Assembly: GCA_013115125.1 (NCBI GenBank)
Contig: JABANN010000114.1
Location: 1-64,000, forward strand
Source: Perkinsus olseni
Lineage: Eukaryota
Reading direction: 5' to 3'
DNA length: 64,000 nucleotides
Part shown: positions 36,098 to 56,959 of the stretch, one piece after another
Position numbering within the stretch: the first letter of the stretch is position 1
How the letters are laid out: the number at the start of each line of letters is the position of its first letter
Program-made: the position numbers and the translations under genes
Notes under the pieces: generated by a model
Seen by the model: only the letters and a program-made list of their open reading frames with translations
What the model was told of the DNA's origin: nothing
Database searches by the model: none

Positions 36098-36321
36098 AGT
36101 GTTTATTAGTGGTCATCATGATGATGGTCATCATCGTCATCATCATCACCAACCTGCCGTTTCCTCGGTTCGAACTATTGCAGAAAGCCGCTATTCATCA
36201 ACTACTACCATGACTTGTGTTTTAAACGTAAACGGAGTATGGAGGCTGCTGCTACTCACCCCGCTCTGTCGTATTACTACTTGGCAGTTTCATACGTGAA
36301 TTTTGGAATTGTAAGGTCGTC

Positions 36322-51929: not shown

Positions 51930-53743
51930 TCAGAACTCAACGGGCTCCACTTTGTCGTAGCCAGCGAGGATATCCTCAACCTGCTCAGGGTCAACCTTGG
52001 ATATCTTCGCCGGGGTGTAGTCCGGGGGCATTCCCTGACGAGAACACGACGTGAGCATGAAAGGCTGTAGACAGAGGCTAAGTTCTCAGAGGTCCCGCAA
52101 GGCTCAGCGACTGCGTACTGCTGTGACCTACCTTGCCCTTGTCAAACAGCGTGAAGCGGACGCCCTCCTTGAAGTTGTAGTTATCAACATGAGTAATGGA
52201 GGCCCCCATAAGATACCTATGGACGAGTCCCAGTCAACCAACAGCCCGATACTGCTACTAGGTACTCTCGTGCTAGACAGTCCCCCAATGATGACTGCTC
52301 TCGTAAGGCCTTGTCGTGAAGAGCGTACCACACCGCGCAGGAGGTAGGACACTTCCGGCTAAGGGTATCTGCCACATCCCGATTCCCCATTCCCGTGCTC
52401 ACAGCGGCAGCGATTCTACTTAGACATTTCTCTGCGAAGGGATTGGTATCCTTCTGTGCTTCCAGAGCAGCGATAATGTCCATCAGGGAAGAATGATGGC
52501 CAGGTCCGAAGAACCTGCCAGGTCATGGAAGATACTCCACTCCTCAACGACGGGCGACGGACCGTTCTATTTGCTGTAGAGTATCGGCGCTCAGTAAGGG
52601 ATCCTGGTGGACATCCTCGAGGTCCACACTACAGGCCGCATCCAACACCTTGTCGACCTCACCCTCGCATGCCATCAAGTCCGACCTGAACAGCGCAGCC
52701 TCATGGGGACAGGTAACACAAGAAGAGCGACGGTGATAATCACCTAAGCTGATCCATTTTGTAAGAATCCATGTAGTGGGTTGCCAAACCGTGCTTCAAC
52801 AAGTCAACGCCGTTGAGGCGAGCTCCTGTAAGGCCTGCCACCACCAAGTGAAATAATCATGTTTGTGAAGCGCGGGCTGCACCTAGATAGAGTCCCAGCC
52901 CAGGAGACTTCAAACGGGAGAGGAAATACGATGCACCAATATCAGGAACCTGACCAGTGGATGGATATCCGCACAGCTAACCGACTCGGTACAGTACGAA
53001 TCCGATGCCTGTCTCCGGCATAGAGAATATCGTATTCTCAGCAGCAATACGGTGCGTGCCATACAAGGAGAGGCCAACGCCTCCACCCATGACGATACCG
53101 TTCCAAAGGGACACCCAATTCGAGGGGTACCTACTATGCTGTCATTCAAACGTAGGGCGACGGAAGCAGCTTACGTATGGATTCGATGGTTCATTTGGAA
53201 CTCGGTAGCAAACCACCTAGAAGAGAGATGAGTAACAATTGCCGACGGGCGAGATCTCACCTCAAATTCCATCCACTGTTGCCCTCGTCAGCCATACGAG
53301 CCACATCTCCTCCGGCGCAGAAGGCCCGCTGACCCTCTCCAGTGACTACGACCTACTAGACTCCCATCCAGCATAGTATATGACATATACTATCTGTGAT
53401 CGTACTCCTACCGTAGGTGGGCTGTCACTGAGCATCCACTCGCCAACCCAGCTGTTGATACAGGAGACCTAACCGAAGACTGTAACGGTGGCCTAGCGAT
53501 GGTAGCACTACTTGGTCCAACGTCAAGGCATTGAGCTTAGAAGGTCTGTTGAGGTGAATGTTGACGACCTTGCGAGACTCCGATGCGGAAAGCTTGAGCT
53601 CGCCAGTGTGGATGGCTGAGGCGCTAGCACCTGCGAAGGGCGGTGCTGGAGACCTGATAGATCCACGGACTACTACTACTATGGGCCCCCACTGACGATG
53701 CGGCGGTGGACACATGCCTCGCTACGCTCCCCAGACGATTCAT
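51930..53743 (-). CDS. HIBCH: 3-hydroxyisobutyryl-CoA hydrolase (crotonase fold)
   Basis: LNRPSKLNALT, GEGQRAFCAGGDV, WNGIVMGGGVGLS, FSMPETGIG, LTGARLNG, KCPTS, FHAHVVFVSKGMP. Exon 1 reads MNRLGSVARHVSTAASSVGAH from ATG 53743. Confidence 0.88.
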
Positions 53744-53864
53744 CAGAAAAAACAACTGTCCGGAAATGACCCCAGTCCCCCCTCAGCCAAGCGGCACTTC
53801 AACTCGATACATCAAGAATGTCTTAGTAAGTATGTACAGTGTGTCTACACACGATTCCGTGTGC

Positions 53865-53931
53865 GAGGATACTGTCAGCGCAAGCTCTGTCATTTACTGA
53901 TGATTGCTGAGCTGCACTTCATTCGTCCCTC
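53865..53931 (-). promoter_or_regulatory. SECIS element (type II-like) in the 3' UTR of the selenoprotein gene
   Basis: Minus strand: GAGGGAC-GA-ATGAA-GTGCAGCTC-AGCAA-TCAT-CAGTAA-ATGA-CA-GAGCTTGCGC-TGAC-A-GTATCCTC. It shows helix I, an AUGA/GA quartet, a ~10-bp helix II, an AA motif and an apical mini-stem, and starts ~25 nt after the TAA. Confidence 0.8.
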
Positions 53932-53955
53932 AACGACTTAGTAAAACTCGGACTT

Positions 53956-54701
53956 TTACCCGCATCAGCCGCCTGACATCGATGAATGGACATCAGATCG
54001 GGAGGGCCGAAGCGGTAGTACCCATGGCCCGCATCTTTGCTATGCCTTCTAAACCCTTCATATCTCCCATTTGCGGCCGACCGACACTGCGGGGGCCTCT
54101 ACCATTGGGACCGCCACCGTTCTGAAATGCGACTCCTCGAACACACAGGCGCCCACACCATGATTGAATCAGGCTTGAGCGCAACGAGAGGGATCGATGT
54201 GAAGATCCAGCGGAGAAGTGCATGCTGGGTGGCAGCAGTTGCTCTACCAAGCACTCGATAGAATCGAGTTGTAGTCCATGAGACCCGATGAGCTCATCAT
54301 GTTTCTACCCGCGTCCGGGCGTACTCAGTCCGCAGACACTATGACCCGTCTGCTACGTCGGGCGTACTGATACACGTGCACAACGTATAACGTTGGAAAT
54401 GCAAGGGGTGTCCCCATTCGTATTACATCCCCTCCCCAGCCACCGCCTCCTTTGCGGCTCCTGTTCGAGGATGGACGGTATGCTGAGCTCGATCCCGGCG
54501 CGAAGATACCCTAAAAGCCGACATCAAATTCGCTTGACTGAACGCACTTAGCCCGCTACTGACTTGCAAGAACAGCATCACCACTCCGAAGACCTTCCAG
54601 AACAGATCAATAACCGCCTGTAGGGGCCACCACAAGCTCAACTTCCTGTGGGGCACTTGGGACTCATCCGAGTACAATACTCCATCCACTATCACCGCCA
54701 T
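53956..54701 (-). CDS. SELENOK: Selenoprotein K-like protein, 4 exons, Sec TGA at 53965-53967
   Basis: MAVIVDGVLY...WWPLQAVIDLFWKVFGVVMLFLQ|GIFAPG...GGGGWGGD|NGGGPNGRGPRSVGRPQMGDMKG...KMRAMG|GUCG*. One TM helix, a G/P/R-rich tail, in-frame TGA three codons before TAA, and a downstream SECIS. Confidence 0.85.
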
Positions 54702-55455
54702 TAATGATGATAACAAAAATCAATATAACTGGCATGACCCCTCCCACCCGAATCCAGGAAATGAACGATTTACATGCTGATGTGAATACCCGCTGCATTT
54801 CCGACCCCAGTACTCCTTTTGCACCGCCAAAGCTGATAATCGGCCCTTTCGGAGTCACAGACTCGAAACTACCAGAGGGGAAGAACGGAAACTGCCGGAT
54901 AGATCATTTCCAGAAACCCAAAACTCGCCGGCGAAAAGGGTCTCACCGTGCAGATCGTGCGGTGATGACTCGCTCAGGAGGAATTCCAATATACGATTGC
55001 GATCCAGATGTGGCGCGGGATAGCCCCGTTGACGGCGGAAGCTAATTGATAATGAACTCCACAGAAGACGACATCGGAAAGGGGCATACAGGGTGGTGAT
55101 GATGGTGGGAGATCAGCTTGGCAGTATCATCATTGATGGTGGTAGCCACAATACTGACGACCCGAAATGGTGATGCGTGTACGAAGACAGCAGCAACACC
55201 AGCCAACAACTAAAATCACTAGGTTAAACACTTCTTGTCCTCAGCCTCCATACAGTCGAATGCAGCCACGCACTAGTAGACGACGCGACCAGCATCAAAC
55301 AGTGGAGGTGATATCGTAAGATGACAAAGTGCTGCCTAGTGATCAGGGTGGGGGCAGCTAACACCCTATGGCGGACTATTCCTCTTTAAGTAGAGCGAGC
55401 AATGGTATCATTGTTACTATCATTTACATTTAGCATCGGTACTAGTAGTTCCAAC

Positions 55456-56643
55456 CTACTCTACAGCACGCGACCCGCTGCTACTACTACCAGTATTCTC
55501 CTCTGTTGTAGCCGGCCTGGGGGCCTTTCTGCTCTTCCTCTGCGTGGGCGCAGGAGCTGCATGGTACAACACCAAGCCACCCAGCGCCAAGGCAAACGAT
55601 ATGGCATACATGGCGTGGGACAACCTGAAACTACCTTCTCTAAGGAAGTCGAACACCGCAGCATAGATGTGGGTAGTTAGCAGAGAAAGGTTCATCACAG
55701 CCGCGTCAAAGAGACCAAGGAAGTGGGCTGTCAACGTGTACATGGTGACCAGACAGAAAACGTATCCTGCCATATACCCAACCGCCACTCCGTTCGTCCA
55801 GTCTATGGCAGCTATCTGCTTGCGCTCATGCGACACGACGTGGATGAGTGAAATCAAAATGCCGAAGAGGCCAATCATACCGAGGAACTCCGCCGAGGCT
55901 AAGAAAGGGTCAATGCAGCGTTTACGCTTCATGTCTTCATCCACGACCTCCGTTTCCAGCTTCGTTGATCGTAATCGCTTCACCATGTACTCCTGGAAGA
56001 CATTGCCACAAGCATAGAGGGTAGCGCCAGCGAGAACGAGGAGATCTCCGACCAGGGCGTCTTGCGAAGAGGCAAGATTATCGGGATTCCTAGTGTAATC
56101 GAGCCACACAGTAAAACCCATTCCCGAGAGGGATATGACAACAGCTCCTATGTGGACCCAGTTGTACTTGGCCTTGAGGAAAATCATTGATAGAACCATC
56201 GCGCAAGGGATGGTGAAGCAGTTGAGCAGTTGAGCTGACGTGATGTTAGTGAACTGATAGGCCCACACAGCGAGGTAGTTCGCGTTGACGTCAATGCAAG
56301 CGAAGATGAGGTAGAACCACCACGGCAAAGTCAAACCGTTCTTCCACGGTTTACAGGCGAAAACGTAAAAGCTCAGAAATACGTAGATGAACATACTCTG
56401 AAAGGCTGGAGCATTGAAGTTGTAGTCACTTGCCAGTACTGTTGAGAAGGCCCCAGTGCCGAAGACGCAGAGGGAGATGATCTGACCCTCTAGGATGGCC
56501 CATGCCTTCATCCGAATAGCTTCCTTGGATATGCCTTGTCGGGATGATGGGTAACAACGCATGGCGGTGGTCGGGCTGTCCTCAAGCAGTAGGGGTCTCG
56601 ATAGGGCGGAGGTGATGAAAGAGAGGTCATCCAGCACTCCCAT
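55456..56643 (-). CDS. SLC35F1/F2-family (DUF914) drug/metabolite-type transporter, intronless
   Basis: 395-aa ORF with about ten TMs: DVNANYLAVWAYQFTNITSAQLLNC, GDLLVLAGATLYACGNVFQE, EFLGMIGLFG, NLSLLT. Confidence 0.88.
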   Translation of the reverse strand: MGVLDDLSFITSALSRPLLLEDSPTTAMRCYPSSRQGISKEAIRMKAWAILEGQIISLCVFGTGAFSTVLASDYNFNAPAFQSMFIYVFLSFYVFACKPWKNGLTLPWWFYLIFACIDVNANYLAVWAYQFTNITSAQLLNCFTIPCAMVLSMIFLKAKYNWVHIGAVVISLSGMGFTVWLDYTRNPDNLASSQDALVGDLLVLAGATLYACGNVFQEYMVKRLRSTKLETEVVDEDMKRKRCIDPFLASAEFLGMIGLFGILISLIHVVSHERKQIAAIDWTNGVAVGYMAGYVFCLVTMYTLTAHFLGLFDAAVMNLSLLTTHIYAAVFDFLREGSFRLSHAMYAISFALALGGLVLYHAAPAPTQRKSRKAPRPATTEENTGSSSSGSRAVE

Positions 56644-56959
56644 GAGGAGTAGAGGTATCTCTGAGACGACATCGGCGTCACACTGATGAGCGGAGCGAAG
56701 CGATTCACGTTGTGGCGTTTTCGAAGTCGCCAGTCACGCGAGCGAACTTGCTACTCGAGCAACAGTGTGCCTTTGTGTTCAACTCTGGGTCGAGTTTGGA
56801 AGCTCAAGTTGCCTTTGATGCGTCGCGGAGTCCCTCTACCCCTACCTCCGTGACCCCGCTGCCCGCCAAGGAAGGGTTTGACAACACAAAGGTGATACAT
56901 CTTCATGAACATCACTCAACTGTATCATTACTCGCAACGGAGTCAGTGCATCATCATCA

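What the first reader, a model, noticed from the sequence alone, without database searches (positions are those of the whole stretch)
53865..54701. Hidden selenoprotein (SelK-like) with a C-terminal G-G-U-C-G motif and a SECIS element
Seen: removing a 49-nt GT-AG intron (53973-54021) joins ...ATG G to GC GGC TGA TGC GGG TAA, giving M-G-G-U-C-G-stop. About 25 nt further on lies a complete SECIS-like fold (ATGA at 53922-53919, GA in TGAC at 53877-53874, AA motif, mini-stem). Known: SelK proteins are small single-TM ER proteins with a G/P-rich tail and Sec near the C-terminus (human GGUGR). Inference: UGA is recoded here. The adjacent Sec-Cys pair resembles a reversed thioredoxin-reductase GCUG tail and could form a vicinal selenenylsulfide. 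Gene callers would probably truncate or miss this gene.
Basis: partly seen in the sequence, partly recalled or inferred. Interest (0 to 1): 0.85.

Follow-up and report, generated by a model that had tools for sequence, protein, structure and literature searches.

The report
Misannotated selenoprotein K gene in Perkinsus
This is a real, expressed four-exon gene of the shellfish parasite Perkinsus olseni for a small membrane protein of the well-known selenoprotein K family, whose UGA near the end is most likely read as selenocysteine, and which the public annotation wrongly fuses to the next gene.

Summary
On the minus strand, four exons (54701-54564, 54510-54427, 54121-54022, 53972-53956) give 112 codons ending G-G-UGA-C-G-stop. 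RNA contigs from 4 of 4 runs laid (4 studies) join all three introns exactly, including the 49-nt intron 53973-54021. They carry a spliced-leader tail at 54730 and end near 53820, so the hairpin lies in the mRNA. Exons 1-3 match Pfam SelK_SelG at 46.2 bits (cut-off 23.3). The P. marinus orthologue, named "Selenoprotein K" by UniRef, ends exactly where the UGA sits.

The SECIS-like hairpin (53930-53864) has the AUGA/GA core, AA bulge and mini-stem. Its only Rfam match is SECIS_5 at 20.1 bits, below the gathering score of 50. It lies only 42 nt after the UGA.

A Sec-specific elongation factor is listed for P. marinus. P. olseni's own machinery could not be checked, because no genome is held.

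The public P. olseni protein is a chimera of SelK exons 1-3 and the downstream 3-hydroxyisobutyryl-CoA hydrolase gene. The Sec-Cys selenenylsulfide idea is untested.

Verdict: a new member of a known family. This scan had not found it before.

The parts
54729..54730 (-). AG acceptor for spliced-leader trans-splicing. The mRNA body starts here; the AG is shared by the leader's last two letters and the genome.
   Evidence: The RNA contigs of X1 and X2 end at 54730. The X2 contig carries a 9-letter loose end whose reverse complement, with the genomic AG, equals the last 11 letters of PmaSL1 (leader sequence from PMC3101222, passage).
54564..54701 (-). Exon 1 coding part (46 codons from the first ATG): short N-terminus and the hydrophobic segment.
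   Evidence: Alone it gives Pfam SelK_SelG at E = 0.0044, 18 bits. The best 19-residue hydropathy window is residues 27-45, mean 1.92.
54511..54563 (-). Intron 1, 53 nt, GT..AG.
   Evidence: Joint seen in 4 of 4 runs.
54427..54510 (-). Exon 2 (28 codons), start of the Gly/Ser/Arg-rich tail.
54122..54426 (-). Intron 2, 305 nt, GT..AG. It holds a minor alternative exon at 54248-54366.
   Evidence: The 305-nt joint is seen in 4 of 4 runs. In X3 one low-depth contig (depth 2.1) instead includes 54248-54366. That 119-nt exon shifts the frame and brings a stop after 14 codons.
54022..54121 (-). Exon 3 (100 nt), Gly/Pro/Arg-rich tail ending ...AKMRAM-G.
53973..54021 (-).
   Evidence: Joint seen in 4 of 4 runs, with 101 letters on the shorter side.
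53956..53972 (-). Exon 4 coding part, 17 nt: (G)GC GGC TGA TGC GGG TAA. TGA is 53967-53965, Cys codon 53964-53962, stop 53958-53956.
53820..53955 (-). 3' UTR, about 136 nt.
   Evidence: The spliced contigs of X1, X19 and X2 end at 53820, 53821 and 53822. Contigs cannot prove an RNA end, so the end is approximate.
53864..53930 (-). SECIS-like stem-loop, form 2. Helix I; AUGA 53922-53919; helix II of 10 pairs, an A.A level and a G-C pair; AA 53905-53904 in a 5' bulge; mini-stem 53903-53900 with 53893-53890; 3' core UGAC 53877-53874.
   Evidence: Rfam SECIS_5 at 20.1 bits, full-length alignment. The MFE fold has this shape. Descriptor scan.
53756..53757 (-). AG acceptor for the spliced leader of the next gene, 3-hydroxyisobutyryl-CoA hydrolase. 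This shows it is a separate mRNA.
   Evidence: A separate contig in each run stops at 53741-53761. The X2 loose end at 53752 reads as the leader tail. Context. ECH_2 domain at 322 bits.

Best explanation
The locus is the selenoprotein K (SELENOK/SelK) gene of Perkinsus olseni. Its mRNA is trans-spliced to the spliced leader at 54730, loses three introns and ends near 53820. It encodes a 112-residue, roughly 11.9-kDa protein: a short N-terminus, one hydrophobic membrane segment (about residues 24-49) and a glycine-rich, probably disordered tail.

The UGA at codon 110 is most likely read as selenocysteine. A form-2 SECIS hairpin lies in the 3' UTR, 25 nt behind the TAA, and would recruit the Sec-specific elongation factor with Sec-tRNA. 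The protein would then end G-G-Sec-Cys-Gly. When recoding fails, a 109-residue product ending ...MGG is made.

Shown: gene structure, transcription, family membership, position of the UGA, presence of the hairpin in the mRNA.

Inferred: Sec insertion, membrane location, and a redox or partner-stabilising role of the Sec as in animal SELENOK.
For: (1) RNA contigs of 4 of 4 runs laid (4 studies) join the three introns exactly as modelled, with 0 mismatches. They run from the spliced-leader junction at 54730 to about 53820, so the UGA and the hairpin sit on one mature mRNA.

(2) Pfam PF10961 SelK_SelG scores 46.2 bits (cut-off 23.3) on P0001, whose residues 1-108 equal exons 1-3. It scores 50.4 bits on the P. 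marinus orthologue and 42.3 on the P. chesapeaki one. In the ESM Atlas feature search, 18 of 30 hits carry PF10961 (a lead only).

(3) The UGA is the third codon from the end and follows G-G. Human SELENOK has Sec92 of 94 residues. The human GGUGR tail itself is recalled, not seen in a call.

(4) The P. marinus protein (111 aa, 69% identical) ends ...AMGG. A stop therefore stands at the same place in a second species.

(5) The hairpin at 53930-53864 has AUGA, a 3' GA, AA and a mini-stem with the spacing of the Rfam SECIS_5 consensus, with no indel on the 5' side. It scores 20.1 bits, E = 0.097 on 121 bases against 4227 families. The MFE fold has the same shape. By my descriptor such sites are rare: 2 in the window, shuffles 0.72 per 128 kb. 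A comparable slice around the other descriptor hit gave no SECIS family among its 19 listed matches.

(6) P. marinus has a protein classed as eSelB, described as selenocysteine-specific elongation factor (XP_002773882.1, E = 1.6e-109), in supplementary files 2 and 3 of PMC4342817.
Against: The SECIS score is far below Rfam's gathering score (20.1 against 50). No other Rfam SECIS family, including the general eukaryotic SECIS_1, is listed at E <= 10 on slices of 1501, 121 or 75 bases.

The hairpin is not unusually stable (z = -1.17).

The 3' core reads UGAC, whereas the SECISearch3 paper gives KGAW (PMC3753652 passage).

The UGA is only 34 nt from the 5' end of the hairpin and 42 nt from its AUGA. 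That is shorter than the 51-111 nt minimum measured for deiodinase 1 in human cells (same passage).

No DNA of another Perkinsus species could be fetched. So conservation of the TGA itself, of the Cys-Gly-stop after it and of the SECIS is untested.

No genome is held for the window and the window has no tRNA gene. tRNA-Sec, SBP2, SPS2, PSTK and SepSecS of P. olseni were therefore not examined.

No protein-level evidence exists here.
Confidence: 0.8

Rival explanations
1. A SelK-family gene that has lost selenocysteine. The UGA is an ordinary stop, the protein ends ...MGG (109 residues), and the SECIS-like hairpin is a chance or decayed fold.
For: The SECIS is below Rfam's gathering score and SECIS_1 does not match. 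Fold stability is ordinary. The UGA-to-SECIS spacing of 34-42 nt is shorter than the 51-111 nt minimum in the DIO1 test, and the 3' core is UGAC rather than KGAW. The public P. marinus model treats the codon as a stop. Many SelK-family members of fungi and plants appear in the Atlas clusters; that these lack Sec is recalled.
Against: By recalled knowledge, lineages that give up Sec usually replace it with Cys rather than keep a UGA. Here the UGA sits at the family's own Sec position, third from the end. A second stop follows two codons later, and a hairpin with all SECIS landmarks lies in the 136-nt 3' UTR, where about 8e-4 is expected by chance. A Sec-specific elongation factor is catalogued in the sister species.
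Confidence: 0.13
2. The public annotation is right. One gene encodes a SelK domain fused to 3-hydroxyisobutyryl-CoA hydrolase (477 aa) by splicing from exon 3 (54022) into the downstream gene, and the 17-nt exon is a minor form.
For: NCBI and UniRef hold such a model for P. olseni (P0001) and a similar partial one for P. chesapeaki (P0002), each with PF10961 plus ECH_1 and ECH_2.
Against: None of the 6 joints listed for the 4 runs links 54022 to the hydrolase exons. The SelK contigs end at 53820-53822. The hydrolase contigs are separate records that end at 53741-53761, one with a spliced-leader tail. The P. marinus model is a stand-alone 111-aa protein. The two annotated fusions differ from each other between the two parts, as expected of gene-caller artefacts. 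Contigs can miss rare forms, so a rare fusion transcript is not excluded.
Confidence: 0.03

Closest known systems
Animal selenoprotein K (human SELENOK, 94 aa, Sec92)
   Same: Same Pfam family (PF10961). Same layout: a short N-terminus, one hydrophobic helix (human 20-42, here about 24-49) and a disordered Gly-rich C-terminal part (bioRxiv 10.1101/2021.05.15.444318 passages). Sec is the third residue from the end and follows G-G (Sec92; the GGUGR tail is recalled). The SECIS lies in the 3' UTR.
   Different: The tail is G-G-U-C-G: a Cys directly follows the Sec, where human has Gly. The protein is 112 residues long. Sequence likeness outside Perkinsus is too low for any hit in three word-index searches and one exhaustive search. 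The UGA-to-SECIS spacing is only 34-42 nt. The mRNA is trans-spliced. Binding to DHHC6 or to ERAD partners, known for the animal protein (PMC5789314 abstract), is untested here.
Perkinsus marinus ATCC 50983 'conserved hypothetical protein', named 'Selenoprotein K' by UniRef (P0005, 111 aa)
   Same: Orthologue: 69% identity over 100% of residues 1-108, E = 1.5e-40. SelK_SelG at 50.4 bits. It ends ...AMGG, the residues just before the UGA here.
   Different: The public record stops at the would-be Sec codon, so the Sec and what follows are not annotated. Its DNA could not be read here, so its stop codon, tail and SECIS are unknown to me.
Eukaryotic SECIS elements (Rfam SECIS_5 RF01991; SECISearch3 consensus)
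   Same: AUGA on the 5' side, GA on the 3' side, AA 13 nt after the AUGA, helix II of about 12 levels, a mini-stem with a 6-nt loop (form 2), and a location in the 3' UTR.
   Different: It scores 20.1 bits against a gathering score of 50, and SECIS_1 gives no match. The 3' core is UGAC rather than KGAW. It is unusually close to the UGA. What organisms SECIS_5 was built from I could not establish.
Thioredoxin reductase C-terminal Gly-Cys-Sec-Gly redox centre (recalled)
   Same: Sec and Cys are neighbours near a flexible C-terminus, so a vicinal selenenylsulfide is chemically conceivable.
   Different: The order is reversed (Sec-Cys). There is no flavoprotein domain to reduce it. No homology and no test.

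Membership tests
SelK/SelG family (Pfam PF10961, SELENOK) | Match to the family profile above the curated cut-off | tested here: met
   46.2 bits against 23.3 on P0001 residues 13-96, which are identical to the window's exons 1-3. Exon 1 alone scores 18 bits.
SelK/SelG family (Pfam PF10961, SELENOK) | Small protein with one N-proximal hydrophobic helix and a Gly/Pro-rich tail | tested here: met
   112 residues. The hydropathy peak is at residues 27-45 (mean 1.92). The tail 51-112 has 19 Gly, 7 Ser, 7 Arg and 5 Pro among 62 residues. This is a hydropathy plot only, not a topology predictor.
SelK/SelG family (Pfam PF10961, SELENOK) | In-frame UGA (Sec) two to three residues from the C-terminus | tested here: met
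   TGA at codon 110 of 112, after G-G. Human Sec92 of 94.
SelK/SelG family (Pfam PF10961, SELENOK) | Sec/Cys column conserved in orthologues | tested here: inconclusive
   The P. marinus protein ends exactly before this codon, so a stop stands there. Which stop it is, and what follows, could not be read. The P. chesapeaki model goes astray after exon 3.
SelK/SelG family (Pfam PF10961, SELENOK) | Selenium actually incorporated; ER membrane location; partners (DHHC6, ERAD complex) | not testable with these tools
   Needs 75Se labelling, mass spectrometry and localisation.
Eukaryotic SECIS element | Kink-turn core AUGA / GA, AA motif and helix II of fixed length, in the 3' UTR of the mRNA | tested here: met
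   for the structure and alignment; contigs cover 53820-53971 without a break.
Eukaryotic SECIS element | Score above a curated covariance-model threshold | tested here: not met
   SECIS_5 at 20.1 bits against a gathering score of 50. No other SECIS family is listed at E <= 10. SECISearch3 was not available.
Eukaryotic SECIS element | 3' core KGAW, and UGA-to-SECIS distance of at least about 51 nt (mammalian test) | tested here: not met
   UGAC. 34 nt to the hairpin and 42 nt to the AUGA. Criteria from a PMC3753652 passage, which itself notes lineage-specific SECIS features in protists.
Eukaryotic SECIS element | Conservation with compensatory changes in relatives | not testable with these tools
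   No DNA of other perkinsids could be reached. The metagenome scan found no relative.
Sec-decoding organism | tRNA-Sec, EFsec, SBP2, SPS2, PSTK and SepSecS present in the genome | tested here: inconclusive
   No genome is held and there are 0 tRNAs in the window. One eSelB/EFsec is listed for the sister species P. marinus in PMC4342817 supplements. The other factors were not examined.
Thioredoxin-reductase-type vicinal Cys-Sec centre | Gly-Cys-Sec-Gly at the end of a pyridine-nucleotide disulfide oxidoreductase | tested here: not met
   The order is Sec-Cys, and the only domain found is SelK_SelG.

The most novel reading that the evidence does not exclude
Perkinsus SelK is a variant in which the selenocysteine has its own resolving cysteine next door (G-G-Sec-Cys-Gly). 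This would form an intramolecular vicinal selenenylsulfide, reversed in order from the thioredoxin-reductase tail. Animal SELENOK, by recalled knowledge, has no such partner. The gene's SECIS also works from only about 40 nt behind the UGA, closer than the minimum measured in human cells, which would mean a more compact recoding geometry in perkinsids.
Probability: 0.2. Interest if true: 0.45.

Novelty: new member of a known kind. Interest (0 to 1): 0.3.

Why it matters
It corrects a public gene model: a SelK-hydrolase chimera in P. olseni and P. chesapeaki, and a truncated SelK in P. marinus.

It also gives transcript-backed evidence that a perkinsid, the sister lineage of dinoflagellates, keeps a SECIS-type selenoprotein gene. 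Four full-text searches found no paper describing Perkinsus selenoproteins.

For specialists this is expected rather than surprising. SelK is among the most widespread eukaryotic selenoproteins, and relatives such as Toxoplasma, Oxyrrhis and Amoebophrya are reported to have selenoproteins (passages in PMC3753652 and PMC6394959).

The Sec-Cys tail and the very short UGA-to-SECIS spacing are small oddities that could be tested cheaply.

Tried and rejected
1. Rfam on 1.5 kb around the gene and on the whole window listed no SECIS. For the whole window the E-value of this match would scale above the E <= 10 limit. For the 1.5-kb slice it scales to about 1.2, so the speed filters probably dropped it there.

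2. The exhaustive phmmer search with exon 1 (46 aa) returned only two repeat proteins. Their scores are sums of many weak repeats, so they are spurious.

3. Word-index searches found only Perkinsus proteins, so no distant SelK could be aligned to test the Sec column or how common a U-C tail is. The queries were exon 1 with 'longer'; P0001 residues 1-108 with 'shorter'; and the alignment of three Perkinsus sequences, which gave 7775 candidates.

4. The metagenome scan with the three-species alignment matched 160 pattern stretches, none confirmed.

5. A PDB sequence search found no SelK structure; the best E-value was 0.17, in Gly-rich stretches.

6. tblastn of the P. chesapeaki model against the window: its odd residues 99-135 match nothing at this locus. 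They give no indirect view of that species' SECIS.

7. My first descriptor missed the candidate because it forbade a bulge in helix I. The relaxed version is post hoc and serves only as a rarity estimate.

8. The second descriptor hit (36198-36144) is a GATGAT palindrome. It gives weak C/D-box matches and no SECIS match.

9. Searching papers for RF01991 or SECIS_5 gave nothing relevant.

Full report
**What is in the sequence.** Read on the minus strand, the region holds a four-exon reading frame.

| Part | Coordinates | Size |
|---|---|---|
| Exon 1 | 54701-54564 | 138 nt, from the first ATG |
| Intron 1 | 54563-54511 | 53 nt, GT..AG |
| Exon 2 | 54510-54427 | 84 nt |
| Intron 2 | 54426-54122 | 305 nt, GT..AG |
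| Exon 3 | 54121-54022 | 100 nt |
| Intron 3 | 54021-53973 | 49 nt, GT..AG |
| Exon 4 | 53972-53956 | 17 nt |

The joined frame has 112 codons (339 nt with the stop codon). It ends ...A-M-G-G-TGA-C-G-TAA, with the TGA at 53967-53965.

**Transcripts.** I laid Logan contigs of four public runs from four studies on 53600-54900. X2 is on record as RNA-Seq; the others are guessed to be RNA.

- In 4 of 4 runs one contig skips exactly 53, 305 and 49 letters at the modelled borders, with no mismatch.
- It runs without a break from 53971 down to 53820-53822 in three runs, and to 53856 in the fourth. The mature mRNA therefore carries the UGA, the TAA and the whole hairpin.
- At the 5' end the contigs stop at 54730. 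The X2 contig carries nine further letters. Reverse-complemented and followed by the genomic AG, they equal the last 11 letters of the Perkinsus spliced leader PmaSL1 (passage in PMC3101222). The mRNA is therefore trans-spliced, and the ATG at 54701 is its first AUG.
- The next gene downstream has its own contigs, which end at 53741-53761. One has a leader-like loose end, at an AG at 53757-53756.
- Contigs cannot give expression levels or exact RNA ends, so the 3' end is approximate.
- One low-depth contig in X3 includes an extra 119-nt exon (54366-54248). It shifts the frame and runs into a stop. This is probably an unproductive minor isoform.

**Organism and public annotation.** Earlier notes of this scan call the genome Perkinsus olseni. 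I confirmed this in part: exon 1 is 100% identical to an NCBI protein of P. olseni (P0001).

- **P. olseni (P0001).** The record is 477 residues long and named 3-hydroxyisobutyryl-CoA hydrolase. Its first 108 residues are exons 1-3 of the present gene. The rest is the enoyl-CoA hydratase/isomerase-fold protein encoded downstream (ECH_2, 322 bits). Because the RNA shows two separately leader-capped mRNAs and none of the six listed joints links them, the public model is a chimera. The gene caller skipped the 17-nt last exon.
- **P. chesapeaki (P0002).** This model is fused in a similar way.
- **P. marinus (P0005).** This model is a stand-alone 111-residue protein, and UniRef names it Selenoprotein K. 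It ends ...AMGG, that is, at the position of the UGA.

**Family.** Pfam SelK_SelG (PF10961, cut-off 23.3) scores 46.2 bits on the P. olseni sequence, 50.4 on P. marinus and 42.3 on P. chesapeaki.

- The protein has one hydrophobic segment. The best 19-residue window is 27-45, with mean hydropathy 1.92.
- The tail is glycine-rich, with 19 Gly among the last 62 residues. The calculated mass is about 11.9 kDa.
- Human SELENOK is described as residues 1-19, a hydrophobic helix 20-42 and a disordered 43-94, with Sec at 92 (passages of bioRxiv 10.1101/2021.05.15.444318; abstract of PMC5789314).
- In both proteins the Sec codon is the third from the end.
- I could not align non-Perkinsus SelK proteins. 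One exhaustive and three word-index searches returned only Perkinsus sequences or spurious repeat proteins. This fits the remark in PMC3753652 that SelK shows poor homology even among close relatives.

**The SECIS.** The minimum-free-energy fold of 53945-53855 is already the classical shape:

- helix I;
- an internal loop with AUGA on the 5' side and UGAC on the 3' side;
- helix II of ten pairs, an A.A level and a G-C pair;
- a CAA bulge holding the AA;
- a four-pair mini-stem with a six-base loop.

Rfam's SECIS_5 model aligns over its full length (1-66) with no indel between the AUGA and the AA. It scores 20.1 bits, with E = 0.097 for a 121-base slice against all 4227 families and 0.06 for a 75-base slice.

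That is significant for a targeted question. For one family on this slice the expectation is about 2e-5 by division. It is still well below the family's gathering score of 50. No other SECIS family, including SECIS_1, appears at E <= 10.

A descriptor that I wrote after seeing the site hits the window twice. One hit is this site; the other is a GATGAT palindrome that gives no SECIS match. Sixty shuffles give 0.72 hits per 128 kb.

The fold is not more stable than shuffles (z = -1.17).

Two features depart from the mammalian-centred rules quoted in PMC3753652.

- The 3' core is UGAC rather than KGAW.
- The UGA lies only 34 nt before the hairpin and 42 nt before its AUGA. The minimum measured for deiodinase 1 in human cells is 51-111 nt.

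The same paper notes lineage-specific SECIS features in protists. I count these as cautions, not refutations.

**Machinery.** No whole genome is held for this window, and the window has no tRNA gene. The supplementary tables of PMC4342817 list one eSelB for P. marinus: XP_002773882.1, described as selenocysteine-specific elongation factor, E = 1.6e-109. The other factors and P. olseni itself were not examined.

**Literature.** Full-text searches for Perkinsus with selenoprotein, selenocysteine, selenoproteome or SECIS gave 6, 10, 1 and 2 papers. I read the Perkinsus passages of three of these papers. For the rest I saw only titles and abstract openings. None of what I saw describes Perkinsus selenoproteins. 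One mentions a Perkinsus SELO homologue in a tree. The library lacks most subscription journals, so this is not proof of absence.

**Mechanism and odds.** I put 0.8 on a genuine SelK selenoprotein whose UGA110 is recoded by the 3' UTR SECIS, with termination at the UGA giving a 109-residue by-product. I put 0.13 on a Sec-less SelK homologue with a chance hairpin, and 0.03 on the annotated fusion being real.

It rests on nothing but the two codons. Whether the Cys is conserved even within the genus is unknown.

**Verdict.** What it found is an ordinary member of a widespread family: a new member of a known kind, useful mainly as an annotation correction and as transcript-backed support for Sec use in perkinsids.

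Noticed in passing
window 51930-54701 (minus strand); proteins P0001, P0002: The public P. olseni and P. chesapeaki gene models fuse SelK exons 1-3 to the downstream 3-hydroxyisobutyryl-CoA hydrolase gene (ECH_2). The RNA contigs show two separate spliced-leader-capped mRNAs about 65 nt apart.
   Followed up: yes
window 54248-54366 (minus strand): A minor alternative exon of 119 nt lies inside intron 2. It is seen in one low-depth contig of run X3, and a 208-nt contig of X1 covers 54198-54405. It shifts the frame and brings an early stop, so it is probably an unproductive isoform.
   Followed up: partly
window 54701-54900 and upstream: Contigs of X1 and X19 run on across the spliced-leader acceptor at 54730 into upstream sequence at appreciable depth (458 against 1011 in X1). 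This may be an unprocessed polycistronic precursor or the 3' UTR of the upstream SLC35F-type transporter gene. That gene's 425-codon open frame lies at 55456-56733 on the minus strand and matches Pfam SLC35F at 215.8 bits.
   Followed up: no
window 36100-36200 (minus strand): A GATGAT/ATCATC-rich imperfect palindrome gives weak matches to many C/D-box snoRNA models (best snoR79, 21.4 bits, gathering 80). It also passed my loose SECIS descriptor. It looks like low-complexity sequence rather than an RNA gene.
   Followed up: partly
window 53629-53677 (minus strand): The first intron seen in the hydrolase gene is also 49 nt long (joint in 4 of 4 runs), like SelK intron 3. Very short introns seem typical here.
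   Followed up: no
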